A stretch of DNA of 64,000 bases from Escherichia coli (GTDB lineage: Bacteria > Pseudomonadota > Gammaproteobacteria > Enterobacterales > Enterobacteriaceae). Numbering within the stretch: the first letter of the stretch is position 1; every line of letters starts with the position of its first letter. Where the stretch lies: assembly GCF_003018115.1 (NCBI RefSeq), contig NZ_CP027457.1. The stretch is one strand, 5' to 3'. The notes beneath the pieces were generated by a model. That model was not told the DNA's origin, ran no database searches, and was given only the letters and a program-made list of their open reading frames with translations. A program made the translations under genes and the position numbers. Below, in pieces: positions 28,383 to 31,271 of the stretch.

Positions 28383-28544
28383 CCAGGCCTGAGGCATTCG
28401 TAACGGTAGGAGTTGCAATGGCGGTAGCGCTGGTGGTTTATTCGATTTGCCGCTGGGGTTGACGTAATTACTAATCCGGGGCTATATTCACCGCACGGTC
28501 GAGTTGACCGTCGGGATTGAGACCCCGGATATTCAACCGCGACA

Positions 28545-28575
28545 GACACACGCCGCGAGCGTGTTTTTTATTGTC
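28545..28575 (+). terminator. intrinsic terminator
   Basis: Hairpin acacgccgcgagcgtgt followed by ttttttatt. Confidence 0.5.
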
Positions 28576-28733
28576 GTATGCGCACGCACATCTGAATTAT
28601 GGTGAGGCGTATGGGGCAGCCGAAAGGCTGGCCGGTTGGTTGATCCGGTAGTCTCAACCCTGTACGTCTCGCCACCTGATGATTGAGACCTGAAGGTGGT
28701 GATAGTTAAATTCATCAACCAGAGGGCGTTATC

Positions 28734-29285
28734 ATGACGACTCAAGTTACTGTCAAAAACCTTTCCCCTGTCACTTATAACCAGATTCCTGTAATCACAA
28801 CTGAGTTACTCGCCCGCCTTTACGGAACAGAAGCAATCCGTATACAGCAGAATCACCATGAAAATAAATCTCGATTTATTGAGGGAAAACACTTCTTTAA
28901 AGCTGTTGGTGATGAGCTCAAAAATTTGCGACTAGTTTTAAACGAGTCGCAAAATGAGGTGAAAATTTCTCCCAAAACCCGCACTCTCATCCTCTGGACA
29001 GAACGCGGAGCAGCCCGTCATGCAAAAATGCTCGAAACCGATCAGGCGTGGGAAGTATTCGAAAAACTCGAAGACAGTTACTTCAACCAGTACGAGAAAG
29101 AGCGGGCTATGGGAAAAATGAATATCGATTTTCATCTGGCGATCCGTGACGATAAAACCGCCTTCATCCGAAGTTATGCGCCTGGCCAGCTGGTGACGGT
29201 TGAAGAAGCCCTGGCTTTGCTTAAATCGCGCGGATGGCTGGTAATGCCACGAGATGAACTGGCCGGAAAATTAATGGAGCTTTAA
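28734..29285 (+). CDS. phage protein, ORF6N-type (Rha/antirepressor-like) domain
   Basis: 183 aa; motif LILWTERGAARHAKMLETDQAWEVFEKLEDSYF recalled as typical of ORF6N-domain proteins. Confidence 0.65.
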   Translation: MTTQVTVKNLSPVTYNQIPVITTELLARLYGTEAIRIQQNHHENKSRFIEGKHFFKAVGDELKNLRLVLNESQNEVKISPKTRTLILWTERGAARHAKMLETDQAWEVFEKLEDSYFNQYEKERAMGKMNIDFHLAIRDDKTAFIRSYAPGQLVTVEEALALLKSRGWLVMPRDELAGKLMEL

Positions 29286-29556
29286 CCGATTGAGTTAACC
29301 TTGATATGGGAATTCCCATATCGGGAGAACATTACCATCGGGGATAAAATGATTTGCGGGGAAAGAAGAGTTAAGTAGAATTGCTGCGGGTGCTTGAGGC
29401 TGTCTGCCTCGGGCATGCCGCCGTAAGGCAGACAGAGAAAAGCCCCAGTTAACATTACGCGTCTTGCAGGACGCTTAACATTAATCTGAGGCCAATTTCA
29501 TGCTTTGCACATGTAGGTTAGCCTCTTACGTGCCGAAAGGCAAGGAGAAGCAGGCT

Positions 29557-29712
29557 ATGAAGCAGCAAAAGGCGATGTTAATCGCCCTGATTGTCATCTG
29601 TTTAACCGTCATAGTGACGGCACTGGTAACGAGGAAAGACCTCTGCGAGGTACGAATCCGAACCGGCCAGACGGAGGTCGCTGTCTTCACAGCTTACGAA
29701 CCTGAGGAGTAA
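29557..29712 (+). CDS. hokD: Hok/Gef family type I toxin (HokD/RelF-like)
   Basis: 51-aa product MKQQKAMLIALIVICLTVIVTALVTRKDLCEVRIRTGQTEVAVFTAYEPEE; strong AAGGAG Shine-Dalgarno; the same frame is open 19 codons upstream (Mok-like leader). Confidence 0.88.
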   Translation: MKQQKAMLIALIVICLTVIVTALVTRKDLCEVRIRTGQTEVAVFTAYEPEE

Positions 29713-29814
29713 GAGACCTGGCGAGGGAGAAATCCCTCGCCACCTCTGATGTGTCAGGCATCCTCAACGCACCCGCACTTAACCTGCTTCGGCGGGTTTT
29801 GTTGTATTAGAATA

Positions 29815-30132
29815 TCAGGATATTACCTGGATCCCGTTTTTCTCGACAACTGAAAGAAGCCGAAGAGCTGCACCTCCCGGGCGTTTCACTCCTCGTTCCC
29901 AGTCTGATATCAGGTTTTTACTGACGTTGAGGTATCTGGCAAAAACAGGTTGAGACAGATGCTCTCGTTCTCGCAGTGCACGGATCCTTTCTGGAGACAT
30001 TACCGGCGCAGGCTGAAGACAAGTTTCATCGAATTCGCGCATAGTTTGTTTTGTGATTGCACCGATATCATGGAGTGACTCCATCATTTCATGTACAGAT
30101 GCAAGTGCATCACTGCGGTAATTTTTACTCAT
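29815..30132 (-). CDS. HigA-like antitoxin (XRE-family HTH)
   Basis: 105 aa, HTH LSQPVFARYLNVSKNLISDWERG; 8-nt overlap with the upstream toxin gene (toxin-first arrangement). Confidence 0.8.
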   Translation of the reverse strand: MSKNYRSDALASVHEMMESLHDIGAITKQTMREFDETCLQPAPVMSPERIRALREREHLSQPVFARYLNVSKNLISDWERGVKRPGGAALRLLSVVEKNGIQVIS

Positions 30133-30497
30133 TGGGTACCTCCGTGAACTGGCCTTGTTGAATCAATTGTGCCAGCTGTTCATCAGTAAGATTGAGGACA
30201 TGGGGAGCGGCTTTTCGAAAAGCATTTTCCTCTATAGCAGTGATATTCTCTCGTTCATTCTTTGCGTATGCGTAGATGAAAAAGGCTTTTTCTGCAACGC
30301 GGTAAAAAATTATTGTCCGGTAACCGCCTGATTTTCCGCCACCACTTCGGGCTAATCTTTGTTTAATGACACCACTACCCAAATTTGCGGATATGATCCC
30401 CCTTATCGGCCTGCTCCACGATTTTGCGTAGCGATTTATCGGAAATCCGATGTTTTCGGGCGAAACGTTCAAACCAGGCGTTTTTGAAAATTCGCAT
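30125..30497 (-). pseudogene. HigB-like RelE/ParE-superfamily toxin, disrupted by a 1-nt frameshift in a homopolymer
   Basis: Canonical N-terminus MRIFKNAWFERFARKHRISDKSLRKIVEQADKG is in one frame and stops after 40 codons; the conserved core ANLGSGVIKQRLARSGGGKSGGYRTIIFYR... is in the +1 frame; frames switch at a C5 run (plus 30398-30402). Confidence 0.6.
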
Positions 30498-30720
30498 ACC
30501 TGCCTCTGCATTTTATATAACACATAGTGTTACACCATGTGGACTATGGAGGCAATCTTTATTTGAGAATGCTTGCTGATTTATCGGTGTTCAAAAAACA
30601 GACGTAATTCAGATTGTATAAACGGCAGACAGAAAAAGTCATTGTTCTTGCGCATAAAATCCTCAGATTTACTGAGTGAAATGCGTCTCTTTTCATGGTT
30701 ATAGTCCGAGAGAAGCGATA

Positions 30721-30948
30721 ATGCATTTCATTTCCTTTACGTCAGGAGGTGTTGTGAAAATCCCAGCCAGTTTGATCCCGGGGTTTTATGAGAGCATGCG
30801 CCCGGTTGTTGTTTACAGAAACAGTGATGGTTCTTTTCAATGTGGTTTTGTTATGCGAAGTAATGAGGTTGTTGTAAGCCTTTCTCTTCTTTCTGAGGTA
30901 AGAGAGTTGGCAGGATTACCTGTTGATGATATTCAGAAGCAGCTATAA
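30721..30948 (+). CDS. hypothetical phage protein (position of rem in Qin-type prophages)
   Basis: Small ORF between hokD and the DUF968 gene; start uncertain (GTG 30676, ATG 30721 or GTG 30754). Confidence 0.35.
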   Translation: MHFISFTSGGVVKIPASLIPGFYESMRPVVVYRNSDGSFQCGFVMRSNEVVVSLSLLSEVRELAGLPVDDIQKQL

Positions 30949-30983
30949 AATCAGGCTGACTTGAACCGTCGCTGAGAAACACC

Positions 30984-31271
30984 GTGCCACCGGAGATCCC
31001 GATGGCGCACGATAGCAGATTGCACAATTCTGCCGCCCTTGCCAGTAGGCAAGGGCGGTGTTCGCACGTATTTAAAACCGACTGGTTCCAGCATCCCCCA
31101 TGCACTGAAGAACAGGCCGAATGGCTGATTCAGTGCTACCGCAGACGTGGTTACGAGTTTCAGAAAGATCTCAGCTTCGATCGTCGTCACTGGATAATCT
31201 CCGTCAGGCTCCCTTATTCCGAACGCCCACCGCGTCCGTCCCGCACATTCCAGCAGCGCATCTGGAGGTAA
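30984..31271 (+). CDS. hypothetical phage protein
   Basis: 95-aa ORF ending 2 nt before the DUF968 gene start. Confidence 0.4.
   Translation: MPPEIPMAHDSRLHNSAALASRQGRCSHVFKTDWFQHPPCTEEQAEWLIQCYRRRGYEFQKDLSFDRRHWIISVRLPYSERPPRPSRTFQQRIWR

What the first reader, a model, noticed from the sequence alone, without database searches (positions are those of the whole stretch)
29286..30523. Adjacent type I (hokD) and type II (HigBA-like) toxin-antitoxin loci
A HokD/RelF-type toxin with a strong Shine-Dalgarno and a same-frame upstream Mok-like leader sits ~100 bp from a convergently oriented HigB/HigA-like pair. The upstream leader (29300-29556) should encode the Sok-like antisense RNA and fold-back elements, which I did not map. 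The type II toxin is frameshifted (separate finding), so the cluster may be in mutational decay.
Basis: partly seen in the sequence, partly recalled or inferred. Interest (0 to 1): 0.45.

Follow-up and report, generated by a model that had tools for sequence, protein, structure and literature searches.

The report
Prophage hok/sok beside broken HigBA2-like pair
This stretch of an E. coli lambdoid prophage holds a complete, well-known hok/mok/sok killer-and-antisense module and, next to it, a HigB2/HigA2-like toxin-antitoxin pair whose toxin gene is broken by one extra base; both are already annotated in many genomes, so the finding is ordinary.

Summary
Window 29557-29712 (+) encodes a peptide identical to E. 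coli HokD, with an in-frame Mok start at 29500. Unlike K-12 hokD, it has a full hok leader (Rfam RF01794, 117 bits).
- hok mRNA, about 29388-29806.
- 5' tac (29388-29399), which pairs with 3' fbi (29762-29774). So the fold-back element lies downstream of hok, not in the leader.
- ucb, mok SD and dcb.
- Sok on the minus strand, about 29508 to 29438, with promoter hexamers at 29515-29543.

The locus is 91% identical to the annotated hokW/mokW/sokW of phage 933W.

102 nt downstream, and convergent, lies a toxin-first operon:
- A PF06296 RelE-family toxin (30497-30125).
- An Xre-HTH antitoxin (30132-29815).

Their best solved relatives are V. cholerae HigB2 and HigA2. The toxin carries a +1 frameshift: C5 at 30398-30402, against C4 in the intact 123-aa allele. 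This is a real allele. Fifty complete E. coli genomes carry C5 and 113 carry C4.

The two modules are separate cassettes in the region between the replication genes and Q of a prophage integrated at ompW. "Mutational decay" applies only to the type II toxin.

Novelty: already known. Interest: low.

The parts
29354..29381 (+). Putative hok promoter: -35 TTGCGG (29354-29359), 16-nt spacer, -10 TAGAAT (29376-29381)
   Evidence: Read from the sequence. The -10 aligns with TATAAT of K-12 hokC and is identical in 933W hokW. The consensus scan did not report it because its -35 is too weak for the tool's threshold. Inferred, not shown.
29388..29806 (+). Full-length hok mRNA, about 419 nt (5' end by homology with R1/R100 hok mRNA; 3' end at the terminator T-run)
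   Evidence: Rfam RF01794 covers 29388-29562 at 117.3 bits against a gathering score of 59. MFE -182.4 kcal/mol, z = -7.6 against 100 shuffles. 91.2% identical to the 933W hokW locus.
29388..29399 (+). tac (translational activator element) at the 5' end: GGGUGCUUGAGG
   Evidence: Pairs with 29762-29774 in the MFE of the full-length RNA. Duplex -21.1 to -21.5 kcal/mol; 0 of 300 shuffled 3' UTRs do as well. Aligns with the R100/R1 5' end GGCGCUUGAGG.
29407..29419 (+). Partner of tac in the 5' metastable hairpin (CCUCGGGCAUGCC)
   Evidence: tac pairs here in the MFE once the 3' end is removed. Duplex -17.5 kcal/mol. The R1 model describes tac pairing with a region immediately downstream in the nascent RNA (PMC9841398).
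29440..29448 (+). ucb, the anti-SD for mok (AAGCCCCAG)
   Evidence: Pairs with the mok SD region 29486-29493 in the full-length MFE. ucb-mokSD duplex -9.9 kcal/mol; alternative tac-ucb duplex -10.7 kcal/mol. AGCCCC is invariant across window, hokW, hokC and R100.
29438..29508 (-). Predicted Sok antisense RNA, about 71 nt: a 5' single-stranded tail covering the mok start, a long hairpin, then UUUUCUCU
   Evidence: Coordinates transferred from the annotated sokW of 933W, which is colinear with the window. The same 9-nt overlap with the mok start is seen for K-12 sokC/mokC. Fold -30.2 kcal/mol, z = -4.8, with the 5' tail unpaired. Compensatory changes in the hairpin (GC/CG, UA/CG, AU/GC) among related loci. 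No transcript evidence.
29515..29543 (-). Predicted Sok promoter: -35 TTGCCT (29543-29538), 17-nt spacer, -10 TAACCT (29520-29515)
   Evidence: Read from the sequence. It occupies the same alignment columns as the corresponding R100/R1 hexamers TTGCGC/TATCCT on the minus strand. A start at 29508 lies 7 nt downstream of the -10.
29488..29491 (+). mok Shine-Dalgarno (GAGG), 8 nt before the mok AUG
   Evidence: Sequence. GAGGC is invariant in the four-locus alignment. R1 mok SD is GAGG (PMC9841398).
29500..29712 (+). mok reading frame, 70 aa, in frame with hok and sharing its stop codon
   Evidence: ORF list. Same layout as annotated mokW/hokW and mokC/hokC.
29519..29529 (+). dcb (TAGCCTCTTAC), complementary to the mok SD region
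   Evidence: mokSD-dcb duplex -9.3 kcal/mol. The block is conserved in window, hokW and R100. In R1 the dcb lies within the Sok promoter region (PMC9841398).
29542..29547 (+). hok Shine-Dalgarno (AAGGAG)
   Evidence: Sequence. CAAGGAGAAG is invariant in the alignment.
29557..29712 (+). hok (HokD), 51-aa membrane toxin
   Evidence: Pfam PF01848 E=1.2e-23. Identical to HOKD_ECOLI and seen on at least 1000 contigs. Annotated hokD in identical E. coli records.
29695..29698 (+). TACG motif in Tyr47 codon: the TadA A-to-I editing site reported for K-12 hokD
   Evidence: Sequence. TACGAA is invariant across hok paralogues. Editing of hokD Tyr to Cys is reported in PMC5630033. Not tested here.
29720..29741 (+). 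3' UTR stem-loop GGCGAGGGA-GAAA-UCCCUCGCC, the likely protective 3' hairpin of the processed mRNA
   Evidence: Present in the MFE. Pair 29724/29737 occurs as AU (21), GC (5) and GU (38) among 64 related sequences. The role of the last stem-loop in R1 is described in PMC9841398.
29762..29774 (+). fbi (fold-back inhibitory element): CCUCAACGCACCC
   Evidence: Pairs with tac in the MFE. Nearly invariant in 64 hokD-type sequences. Equivalent end-pairing with compensatory differences is found in R100 hok and K-12 hokB.
29781..29806 (+). Intrinsic terminator of hok mRNA: hairpin 29781-29798 followed by a T-rich tail
   Evidence: Terminator scan. The hok cassette's homology to other loci ends at 29800-29809.
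29815..30132 (-). HigA2-like antitoxin, 105 aa: N-terminal region plus C-terminal Xre-type HTH; intact
   Evidence: Pfam HTH_3 E=1e-07. Best PDB match V. cholerae HigA2, E=6.7e-08 over residues 45-99. Same protein accession (WP_000042395.1) in genomes with intact and with frameshifted toxin.
30125..30497 (-). HigB2-like RelE/ParE-family toxin gene (PF06296), a pseudogene through a +1 frameshift
   Evidence: The two Pfam half-matches lie in different frames. The intact 123-aa allele is in L002. Homologues are 123-129 aa. Profile search hits HigB2 at E=1e-4. For the AF2 model of the intact allele, the ten best PDB matches are all HigB2, TM 0.48-0.62.
30398..30402 (-). Frameshift site: C5 on the + strand (G5 in the gene's sense) where the intact allele has four
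   Evidence: Pairwise alignment. 50 genomes have exact C5 and 113 have exact C4. C5 alleles sit on one related haplotype background.
30503..30532 (-). Putative type II promoter and operator: SD GAGG (30506-30503), extended -10 TGtTATATA (30522-30514), inverted repeat TAACAC-n3-GTGTTA (30518-30532)
   Evidence: Inverted repeat found by the repeat finder. Hexamers read from the sequence. Function is inferred from autoregulation in HigBA2-type modules; not tested.

Best explanation
Two independent, already known kinds of toxin-antitoxin cassette lie tail to tail in the accessory region of a lambdoid prophage integrated at ompW. The region sits between the replication genes and DUF968-rusA-Q.

Cassette 1 (about 29343-29809) is a complete hok/mok/sok type I module of the hokD/hokW type.
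- The stable hok mRNA is made from its own promoter.
- It is held translationally inert by pairing of its 5' end (tac) with the 3' fbi element. In that state the ucb box masks the mok ribosome-binding site.
- Slow 3' trimming removes fbi. tac then re-pairs with ucb, the mok SD is freed, and mok translation drives translation of the overlapping hok.
- This happens only if the short-lived antisense Sok, made from a promoter inside mok on the opposite strand, fails to bind the mok start region and trigger degradation.
- If Sok synthesis stops, through loss of the element or a transcription shut-off, Hok is made and depolarises the inner membrane.

Cassette 2 (about 29804-31000) includes a toxin-first operon.
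- It encodes a PF06296 RelE/ParE-superfamily mRNA-interferase-type toxin and a HigA2-like antitoxin/repressor.
- In this window the toxin is inactivated by one extra C/G in a homopolymer.
- What remains is a probably autoregulated orphan antitoxin.

Shown here: identity, anatomy, conserved pairings, the frameshift and its frequency in genomes.
Inferred from the R1 hok/sok and V. cholerae HigBA2 literature: transcription, processing, killing, and any biological role such as prophage retention or phage exclusion.
For: Identity of the type I module:
- Hok is identical to HOKD_ECOLI. Pfam HOK_GEF E=1.2e-23.
- The hok leader matches Rfam RF01794 at 117 bits against a gathering score of 59.
- The locus is 91.2% identical to 933W, where mokW, hokW and sokW are annotated colinearly.
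- The leader is homologous to K-12 hokC, and the CDS plus 3' UTR are near-identical to K-12 hokD.

RNA structure:
- The full-length RNA folds with z = -7.6, with tac paired to fbi.
- The 5' end's best 3' UTR partner is fbi at -21.5 kcal/mol; 0 of 300 shuffles match it. Equivalent end-pairing is found in hokW, R100 hok and K-12 hokB, with compensatory differences (U-A to C-G; G-C to A-U).
- Alternative tac-metastable, tac-ucb, ucb-mokSD and mokSD-dcb duplexes all exist. They match the R1 model (PMC9841398).
- Sok folds as a single-stranded tail plus a terminator-like hairpin.
- Across 64 related mRNAs, 92.6% of predicted pairs are canonical, against 34-42% when partners are slid. Compensatory pairs occur in the 5' hairpin, the Sok hairpin and the 3' stem-loop.

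Type II module:
- Pfam RelE PF06296 matches in two frames.
- An intact 123-aa allele differs by one base.
- HigB2 and HigA2 are the best PDB matches by sequence and by fold.

Separate cassettes:
- 76 of 80 IMG/VR loci with identical HokD have the full leader, and only 2 have the type II pair.
- In other loci, homology jumps from about 29803 directly to about 31001.

Prophage context.
Against: - No expression, processing or toxicity data exist for this locus.
- According to the literature summarised in the 2026 Hok preprint, the chromosomal hok loci tested in other E. coli strains (hokA, hokB, hokC) did not mediate post-segregational killing. An intact-looking locus may therefore still be inert in that assay.
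- The tac-fbi pair is almost invariant within the hokD/hokW group, so covariation support comes from only three more distant paralogues.
- The MFE pairing of the mok start with 29746-29761 is not conserved.
- The MFE of the truncated RNA shows the metastable hairpin rather than tac-ucb.
- The hok, Sok and type II promoters are read by eye and by alignment; the consensus scan found none of them.
- The AF2 toxin model is only moderately confident (pLDDT 71.5, with residues 36-58 below 50).
Confidence: 0.85

Rival explanations
1. The hok/sok locus is structurally intact but functionally silent, a relic like the other chromosomal hok loci. It is transcribed at most weakly and cannot kill or stabilise the prophage.
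For: [quoted passage not shown] PMC5630033 repeats that four K-12 hok genes were reported inactive. The predicted hok -35 is weak.
Against: The K-12 loci are inactive for identifiable reasons: IS elements next to hokA, hokC and hokE, and loss of the leader in hokD. None of these applies here. Every regulatory element is present. The Hok peptide and the tac/fbi boxes are conserved almost without change in 60 or more distinct phage-borne copies, which argues for selection. The preprint reports toxicity of representative Hok homologues regardless of location.
Confidence: 0.2
2. The two modules form one functional unit. The type II operon has no terminator of its own, so its transcripts run antisense into the hok 3' UTR (fbi and the processing region). 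Expression controlled by HigA2 would then tune hok mRNA maturation or decay.
For: The type II cassette ends only about 11 nt beyond the antitoxin stop codon. No minus-strand terminator was found between 29815 and 29200. The hok terminator hairpin has no U-tract when read on the minus strand. In IMG/VR the type II pair was next to hok in all 15 loci with enough flank.
Against: Most hokD loci (78 of 80 sampled) lack the type II pair and keep the same 3' UTR, so hok regulation does not need it. The constant adjacency may simply reflect one insertion event inherited within one prophage lineage. There are no transcript data.
Confidence: 0.07
3. The frameshifted toxin is still expressed. Either a low-level +1 ribosomal slip or transcriptional slip at the G5 run restores it, or the tract acts as a reversible C4/C5 on-off switch.
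For: The lesion is a single base in a homopolymer. Both alleles are common, 50 against 113 complete genomes. The rest of the gene shows no further damage.
Against: A 5-base run is short for efficient slippage or phase variation. The C5 alleles share one haplotype background, with SNPs accumulated inside the group. That fits a single inherited mutation rather than frequent switching. No stimulatory signal is evident at the site.
Confidence: 0.04

Closest known systems
hokW/mokW/sokW of Stx2 phage 933W (GenBank AF125520 annotation)
   Same: 91.2% nucleotide identity over the whole cassette. It is colinear with the window, with the same promoter -10, tac, an 18-nt longer Sok hairpin, in-frame mok, fbi, and a lambdoid phage setting.
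   Different: The Hok C-terminus differs (92% aa identity). In 933W the module sits in another part of the genome and is not next to a type II pair. The sequence downstream of fbi, including the terminator, differs.
hokD (relF) of the E. coli K-12 Qin prophage
   Same: Identical Hok peptide. Near-identical CDS and 3' UTR, including fbi. The same prophage neighbourhood upstream of a DUF968/ydfU gene and Q. Also adjacent to a RelE-superfamily type II module.
   Different: K-12 hokD has lost everything upstream of the hok SD: no tac, ucb, mok start or Sok. It lies downstream of relBE in the same orientation. In the window the leader is complete, and the type II neighbour is an unrelated PF06296/HTH pair that is downstream and convergent. 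The K-12 arrangement is the minority form, 4 of 80 phage loci.
hok/sok (parB) of plasmids R1/R100, the experimentally defined paradigm
   Same: The same order of elements, and conserved blocks for tac, ucb, mok SD, dcb/Sok promoter and hok SD. 5'-3' end-pairing is present. All alternative pairings of the R1 model have counterparts (PMC9841398).
   Different: Hok is only 39% identical. I recall that mok is out of frame with hok in R1 (my own knowledge, not checked here), whereas here it is in frame. The Sok hairpin is 18 nt longer here. The setting is a plasmid, not a prophage.
HigB2/HigA2 of Vibrio cholerae (PDB 5JA8, 5JAA, 8A0X)
   Same: Toxin-first operon. RelE/ParE-fold toxin containing the G-x-G-K-S/R-G-G-x-R block. 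The antitoxin has a C-terminal Xre HTH and an N-terminal extension. These are the best sequence and fold matches in the PDB (PMC5416850).
   Different: Only 20-26% identity in the toxin, with TM about 0.5-0.6. The toxin belongs to a different Pfam family (PF06296). It has an extra C-terminal helical segment (123 aa against about 110). In this window the toxin is a pseudogene.

Membership tests
[quoted passage not shown] | Small hydrophobic Hok/Gef-family toxin peptide | tested here: met
   PF01848 E=1.2e-23. Identical to HOKD_ECOLI.
[quoted passage not shown] | Overlapping mok reading frame with its own SD upstream of hok | tested here: met
   ATG at 29500, in frame, with GAGG 8 nt upstream. 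Same layout as the annotated mokW and mokC.
[quoted passage not shown] | Conserved hok mRNA 5' leader in sequence and structure | tested here: met
   Rfam RF01794, 117.3 bits against a gathering score of 59, full model length, + strand.
[quoted passage not shown] | Long-range tac-fbi pairing between the mRNA 5' and 3' ends | tested here: met
   Present in the MFE. -21.5 kcal/mol, with 0 of 300 shuffled 3' UTRs matching it. Also present, with compensatory changes, in R100 hok and hokB.
[quoted passage not shown] | Alternative pairings (metastable hairpin, tac-ucb, ucb-mokSD, mokSD-dcb) that allow the refolding switch | tested here: met
   All four duplexes exist, at -17.5, -10.7, -9.9 and -9.3 kcal/mol. 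This shows complementarity only; the switch itself was not shown.
[quoted passage not shown] | cis-encoded antisense Sok RNA with a promoter inside mok, overlapping the mok start | tested here: inconclusive
   The promoter hexamers align with those of R100. Coordinates were transferred from the annotated sokW and sokC. The fold resembles a terminator. No transcript evidence is available.
[quoted passage not shown] | Hok toxicity and killing when Sok decays | not testable with these tools
   Requires experiments.
HigBA-type type II toxin-antitoxin modules (RelE/ParE superfamily; here Pfam PF06296) | Inverted gene order: toxin gene upstream of the antitoxin gene, overlapping or coupled | tested here: met
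   Toxin 30497-30125, then antitoxin 30132-29815, with the overlap ATGAGTAA. The definition is taken from PMC5416850.
HigBA-type type II toxin-antitoxin modules (RelE/ParE superfamily; here Pfam PF06296) | Toxin with a RelE/ParE fold | tested here: met
   PF06296 matches at 8.3e-33 and 5.8e-10. For the AF2 model of the intact allele, the top 10 PDB matches are all HigB2, probability 0.97-1.0 and TM 0.48-0.62, followed by other RelE/ParE toxins.
HigBA-type type II toxin-antitoxin modules (RelE/ParE superfamily; here Pfam PF06296) | Uninterrupted toxin reading frame | tested here: not met
   +1 frameshift at 30398-30402. The window therefore holds a pseudogene, not a functional member.
HigBA-type type II toxin-antitoxin modules (RelE/ParE superfamily; here Pfam PF06296) | Antitoxin with an Xre-type HTH DNA-binding domain plus a toxin-neutralising extension | tested here: met
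   HTH_3 E=1e-07. HigA2 E=6.7e-08 over residues 45-99. A 44-residue N-terminal extension is present; its neutralising role is inferred from HigA2 (PMC11006873).
HigBA-type type II toxin-antitoxin modules (RelE/ParE superfamily; here Pfam PF06296) | Autoregulation through an operator in the promoter | tested here: inconclusive
   The inverted repeat TAACAC-n3-GTGTTA overlaps a putative extended -10. The arms are short and binding was not tested.
HigBA-type type II toxin-antitoxin modules (RelE/ParE superfamily; here Pfam PF06296) | Ribosome-dependent mRNA cleavage by the toxin | not testable with these tools
   Requires biochemistry on the repaired allele.

The most novel reading that the evidence does not exclude
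The adjacency is functional. The terminator-less HigBA2-like operon reads antisense across the hok 3' UTR, covering fbi and the 3' processing site. A type II antitoxin/repressor would then set the rate at which the type I toxin mRNA matures or is destroyed. On this reading, the orphan antitoxin left after toxin loss is retained for that regulatory role.
Probability: 0.05. Interest if true: 0.45.

Novelty: already known. Interest (0 to 1): 0.1.

Why it matters
It matters little for discovery. hok/sok modules in lambdoid prophages have been annotated at least since phage 933W. hok enrichment in prophages is documented. PGAP already names all three genes here.

The practical value lies in annotation:
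- The Rfam 'sok' model marks the hok leader on the sense strand, not the antitoxin RNA.
- K-12 hokD, the usual reference, is the truncated exception. This window shows the common, complete form.
- In the records examined, PGAP annotated the frameshifted toxin as a chimeric 132-aa protein or as two proteins rather than as a pseudogene. This inflates counts of 'type II toxins'.

Tried and rejected
- The sigma-70 consensus scan reported none of the three promoters I propose. Its thresholds need at least 4 of 6 matches in both hexamers, so the promoters rest on alignment with R100, hokC and hokW only.
- NCBIfam gave no hit for the toxin and only sub-threshold HTH hits for the antitoxin.
- PADLOC gave nothing for Hok or the toxin, and only generic HTH hits for the antitoxin. 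There is therefore no support for filing this as a catalogued defence system.
- K-12 hokC, hokA and hokE could not be used to test fbi or tac, because IS186 or IS150 lies immediately next to them. My first alignment of the hokC 3' region was therefore aligning IS sequence, and I disregarded it.
- The MFE pairing of the mok start region with 29746-29761 is specific to this window and not conserved. I do not claim it.
- Folding the 3'-truncated RNA gave the metastable 5' hairpin rather than the tac-ucb stem. The tac-ucb pairing is supported only as a feasible duplex.
- The protein-pattern scan of IMG/VR returned only loci with 100% identical Hok. It helped for context and leader variation, but not for deep covariation of tac-fbi.
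- I considered sequencing error as the cause of the frameshift and rejected it.
Full report
**What is there.**
- The ORF list and sequence show a 51-aa ORF at 29557-29712 (+), preceded by AAGGAG.
- An in-frame ATG at 29500 gives a 70-aa Mok-like ORF.
- The convergent genes are a 105-aa ORF (30132-29815) and a split toxin gene.
- Pfam gives HOK_GEF (E=1.2e-23) for the small ORF and HTH_3 for the 105-aa ORF. It gives two halves of RelE PF06296 in different frames for the toxin.
- The Hok peptide is exactly UniProt HOKD_ECOLI.
- The whole 1238-bp stretch is 100% identical in six listed complete E. coli chromosomes. At least 80% of it is present in 201 of 5426 genomes. There it is annotated as hokD, 'helix-turn-helix domain-containing protein' and 'type II toxin-antitoxin system RelE/ParE family toxin'.

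**Context.**
- In an identical record the region lies in a lambdoid prophage integrated beside ompW.
- The gene order is int, xis, exo, dicB, repressor, cro, ydaT, O, a DnaC-like gene, DUF1627, ORF6N, hokD, the type II pair, two small ORFs, DUF968, rusA, Q, tRNAs, and lysis and head genes.

**The type I locus.**
- The Rfam 'sok' model RF01794 hits 29388-29562 on the + strand at 117 bits against a gathering score of 59.
- The model is 157 nt long and ends at the hok SD and AUG. It therefore describes the hok mRNA leader, not the antisense RNA.
- The leader aligns with K-12 hokC. The CDS and 3' UTR are near-identical to K-12 hokD.
- K-12 hokD diverges just upstream of the hok SD, where relE lies.
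- Phage 933W carries a 91.2% identical, colinear locus with annotated mokW, hokW and sokW.
- Transferring that annotation places Sok at 29508 to 29438 on the minus strand, overlapping the mok start by 9 nt. K-12 sokC/mokC overlap in the same way.
- On the minus strand, TTGCCT-17 nt-TAACCT (29543-29515) occupies the alignment columns of the R100/R1 hexamers TTGCGC and TATCCT.
- The predicted Sok folds into an unpaired 5' tail plus a long hairpin followed by UUUUCUCU (z = -4.8).

**mRNA architecture.**
- RNA 29388-29806 folds at -182.4 kcal/mol (z = -7.6). The 5' GGGUGCUUGAGG pairs with CCUCAACGCACCC at 29762-29774.
- The best 3' UTR partner of the 5' end is this box (-21.5 kcal/mol; 0 of 300 shuffles).
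- The same end-pairing is recovered for hokW, R100 hok and K-12 hokB, with compensatory differences.
- The R1 model is summarised in PMC9841398. It comprises a tac/fbi lock, ucb masking of the mok SD, a metastable 5' hairpin, and tac/ucb plus mokSD/dcb pairing after 3' trimming. Each step has a complementary counterpart here.
- Among 64 distinct hokD/hokW-type mRNAs from IMG/VR plus the window, 92.6% of the predicted pairs are canonical, against 34-42% for slid partners.
- Compensatory pairs occur in the 5' hairpin, the Sok hairpin and the 3' stem-loop.
- tac/fbi is almost invariant. The predicted pairing of the mok start with 29746-29761 is not conserved, and I do not claim it.

**How typical is it.**
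- Of 80 phage contigs with an identical HokD, 76 have the full leader, 4 have relE upstream (the K-12 form) and 2 have the type II pair downstream.
- In many loci, homology runs from about 29803 straight to about 31001. The interval 29804-31000, which holds the type II pair plus a 64-aa ORF, therefore behaves as a separate insertion.
- Conversely, all 15 IMG/VR loci with the type II pair and enough flank have hok beside it.

**The type II pair.**
- An otherwise near-identical allele (L002) has a single 123-aa toxin ORF. The window has one extra base in a homopolymer: C5 at 30398-30402.
- Exact-allele searches find C5 in 50 complete genomes and C4 in 113.
- The frameshift products are on hundreds to thousands of contigs.
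- C5 alleles share one haplotype background, with some later SNPs. This fits a single inherited event.
- Homologues are 123-129 aa and widespread.
- The best PDB matches are V. cholerae HigB2 for the toxin (E about 1e-4 to 4e-4) and HigA2 for the antitoxin (E=6.7e-08).
- For an AF2 model of the intact allele (pLDDT 71.5), the top ten PDB matches are all HigB2 chains, TM 0.48-0.62.
- The gene order is inverted, as in higBA modules (PMC5416850).
- A 6-bp inverted repeat overlaps a putative extended -10 upstream of the toxin ATG. It is a possible operator, untested.
- The antitoxin protein is the same accession in genomes with intact and with broken toxins.

**Verdict.**
- Three points need changing: the placement of the fold-back element, the extent of the leader, and the breadth of the 'decay' claim.
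- Both modules are members of well-described kinds and are already annotated.
- Function is inferred from R1 hok/sok and V. cholerae HigBA2, not shown here. That covers killing, prophage retention and phage exclusion.
- The chromosomal hok loci tested so far did not mediate post-segregational killing, so activity is uncertain.
- The only less ordinary reading left open is transcriptional interplay between the convergent modules. I rate it unlikely.

Noticed in passing
window 28495-28679 (+), upstream of ORF6N gene 28734-29285: An isrK-like RNA (51.2 bits, gathering score 50) and a C4 antisense RNA (RF01695, 69.4 bits) sit directly upstream of an ORF6N-domain, antirepressor-like gene. This resembles a P1/P7 immI-type c4-ant cassette inside the lambdoid prophage.
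   Followed up: no
window 29303-29322: A perfect 20-bp palindrome, GATATGGGAATTCCCATATC, lies between the ORF6N stop codon and the hok cassette. It is outside the region homologous to other hok loci, and no T-run follows it. Its purpose is unknown.
   Followed up: no
window 29493-29513: Among 64 hokD/hokW-type mRNAs that encode an identical Hok, sequence variation is concentrated in the mok start region, which is also the 5' tail of Sok. This would fit insulation between the several hok/sok copies that E. coli genomes carry (median 2 and up to 10 matching places per genome).
   Followed up: partly
window 29695-29698: The Tyr47 codon of hok lies in a TACG motif that is invariant across hok paralogues. 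K-12 hokD is reported to be A-to-I edited there by TadA, recoding Tyr to Cys (PMC5630033).
   Followed up: partly
window 30125-30523 (-): In the records examined, RefSeq/PGAP annotated the frameshifted toxin in one of two ways: as a single chimeric 132-aa protein starting at GTG 30523 (WP_236940275.1), or as two proteins of 40 and 85 aa. Neither record flagged it as a pseudogene.
   Followed up: yes
window 29388-29562 (+): Rfam family RF01794, named 'sok antitoxin', matches the sense strand of the hok leader and ends at the hok AUG. A literal reading of the hit would place the antitoxin on the wrong strand.
   Followed up: yes
window 36917-39868 (+) and 35942-36100 (+): There are five tandem-like copies of the sRNA family STnc100 (119-172 bits), downstream of two tRNA genes in the prophage late-regulatory region after Q.
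   Followed up: no
window 30754-30948 (+): A 64-aa hypothetical ORF travels with the type II pair inside the 29804-31000 insertion, relative to hok loci that lack the pair. It has no Pfam or NCBIfam match.
   Followed up: no
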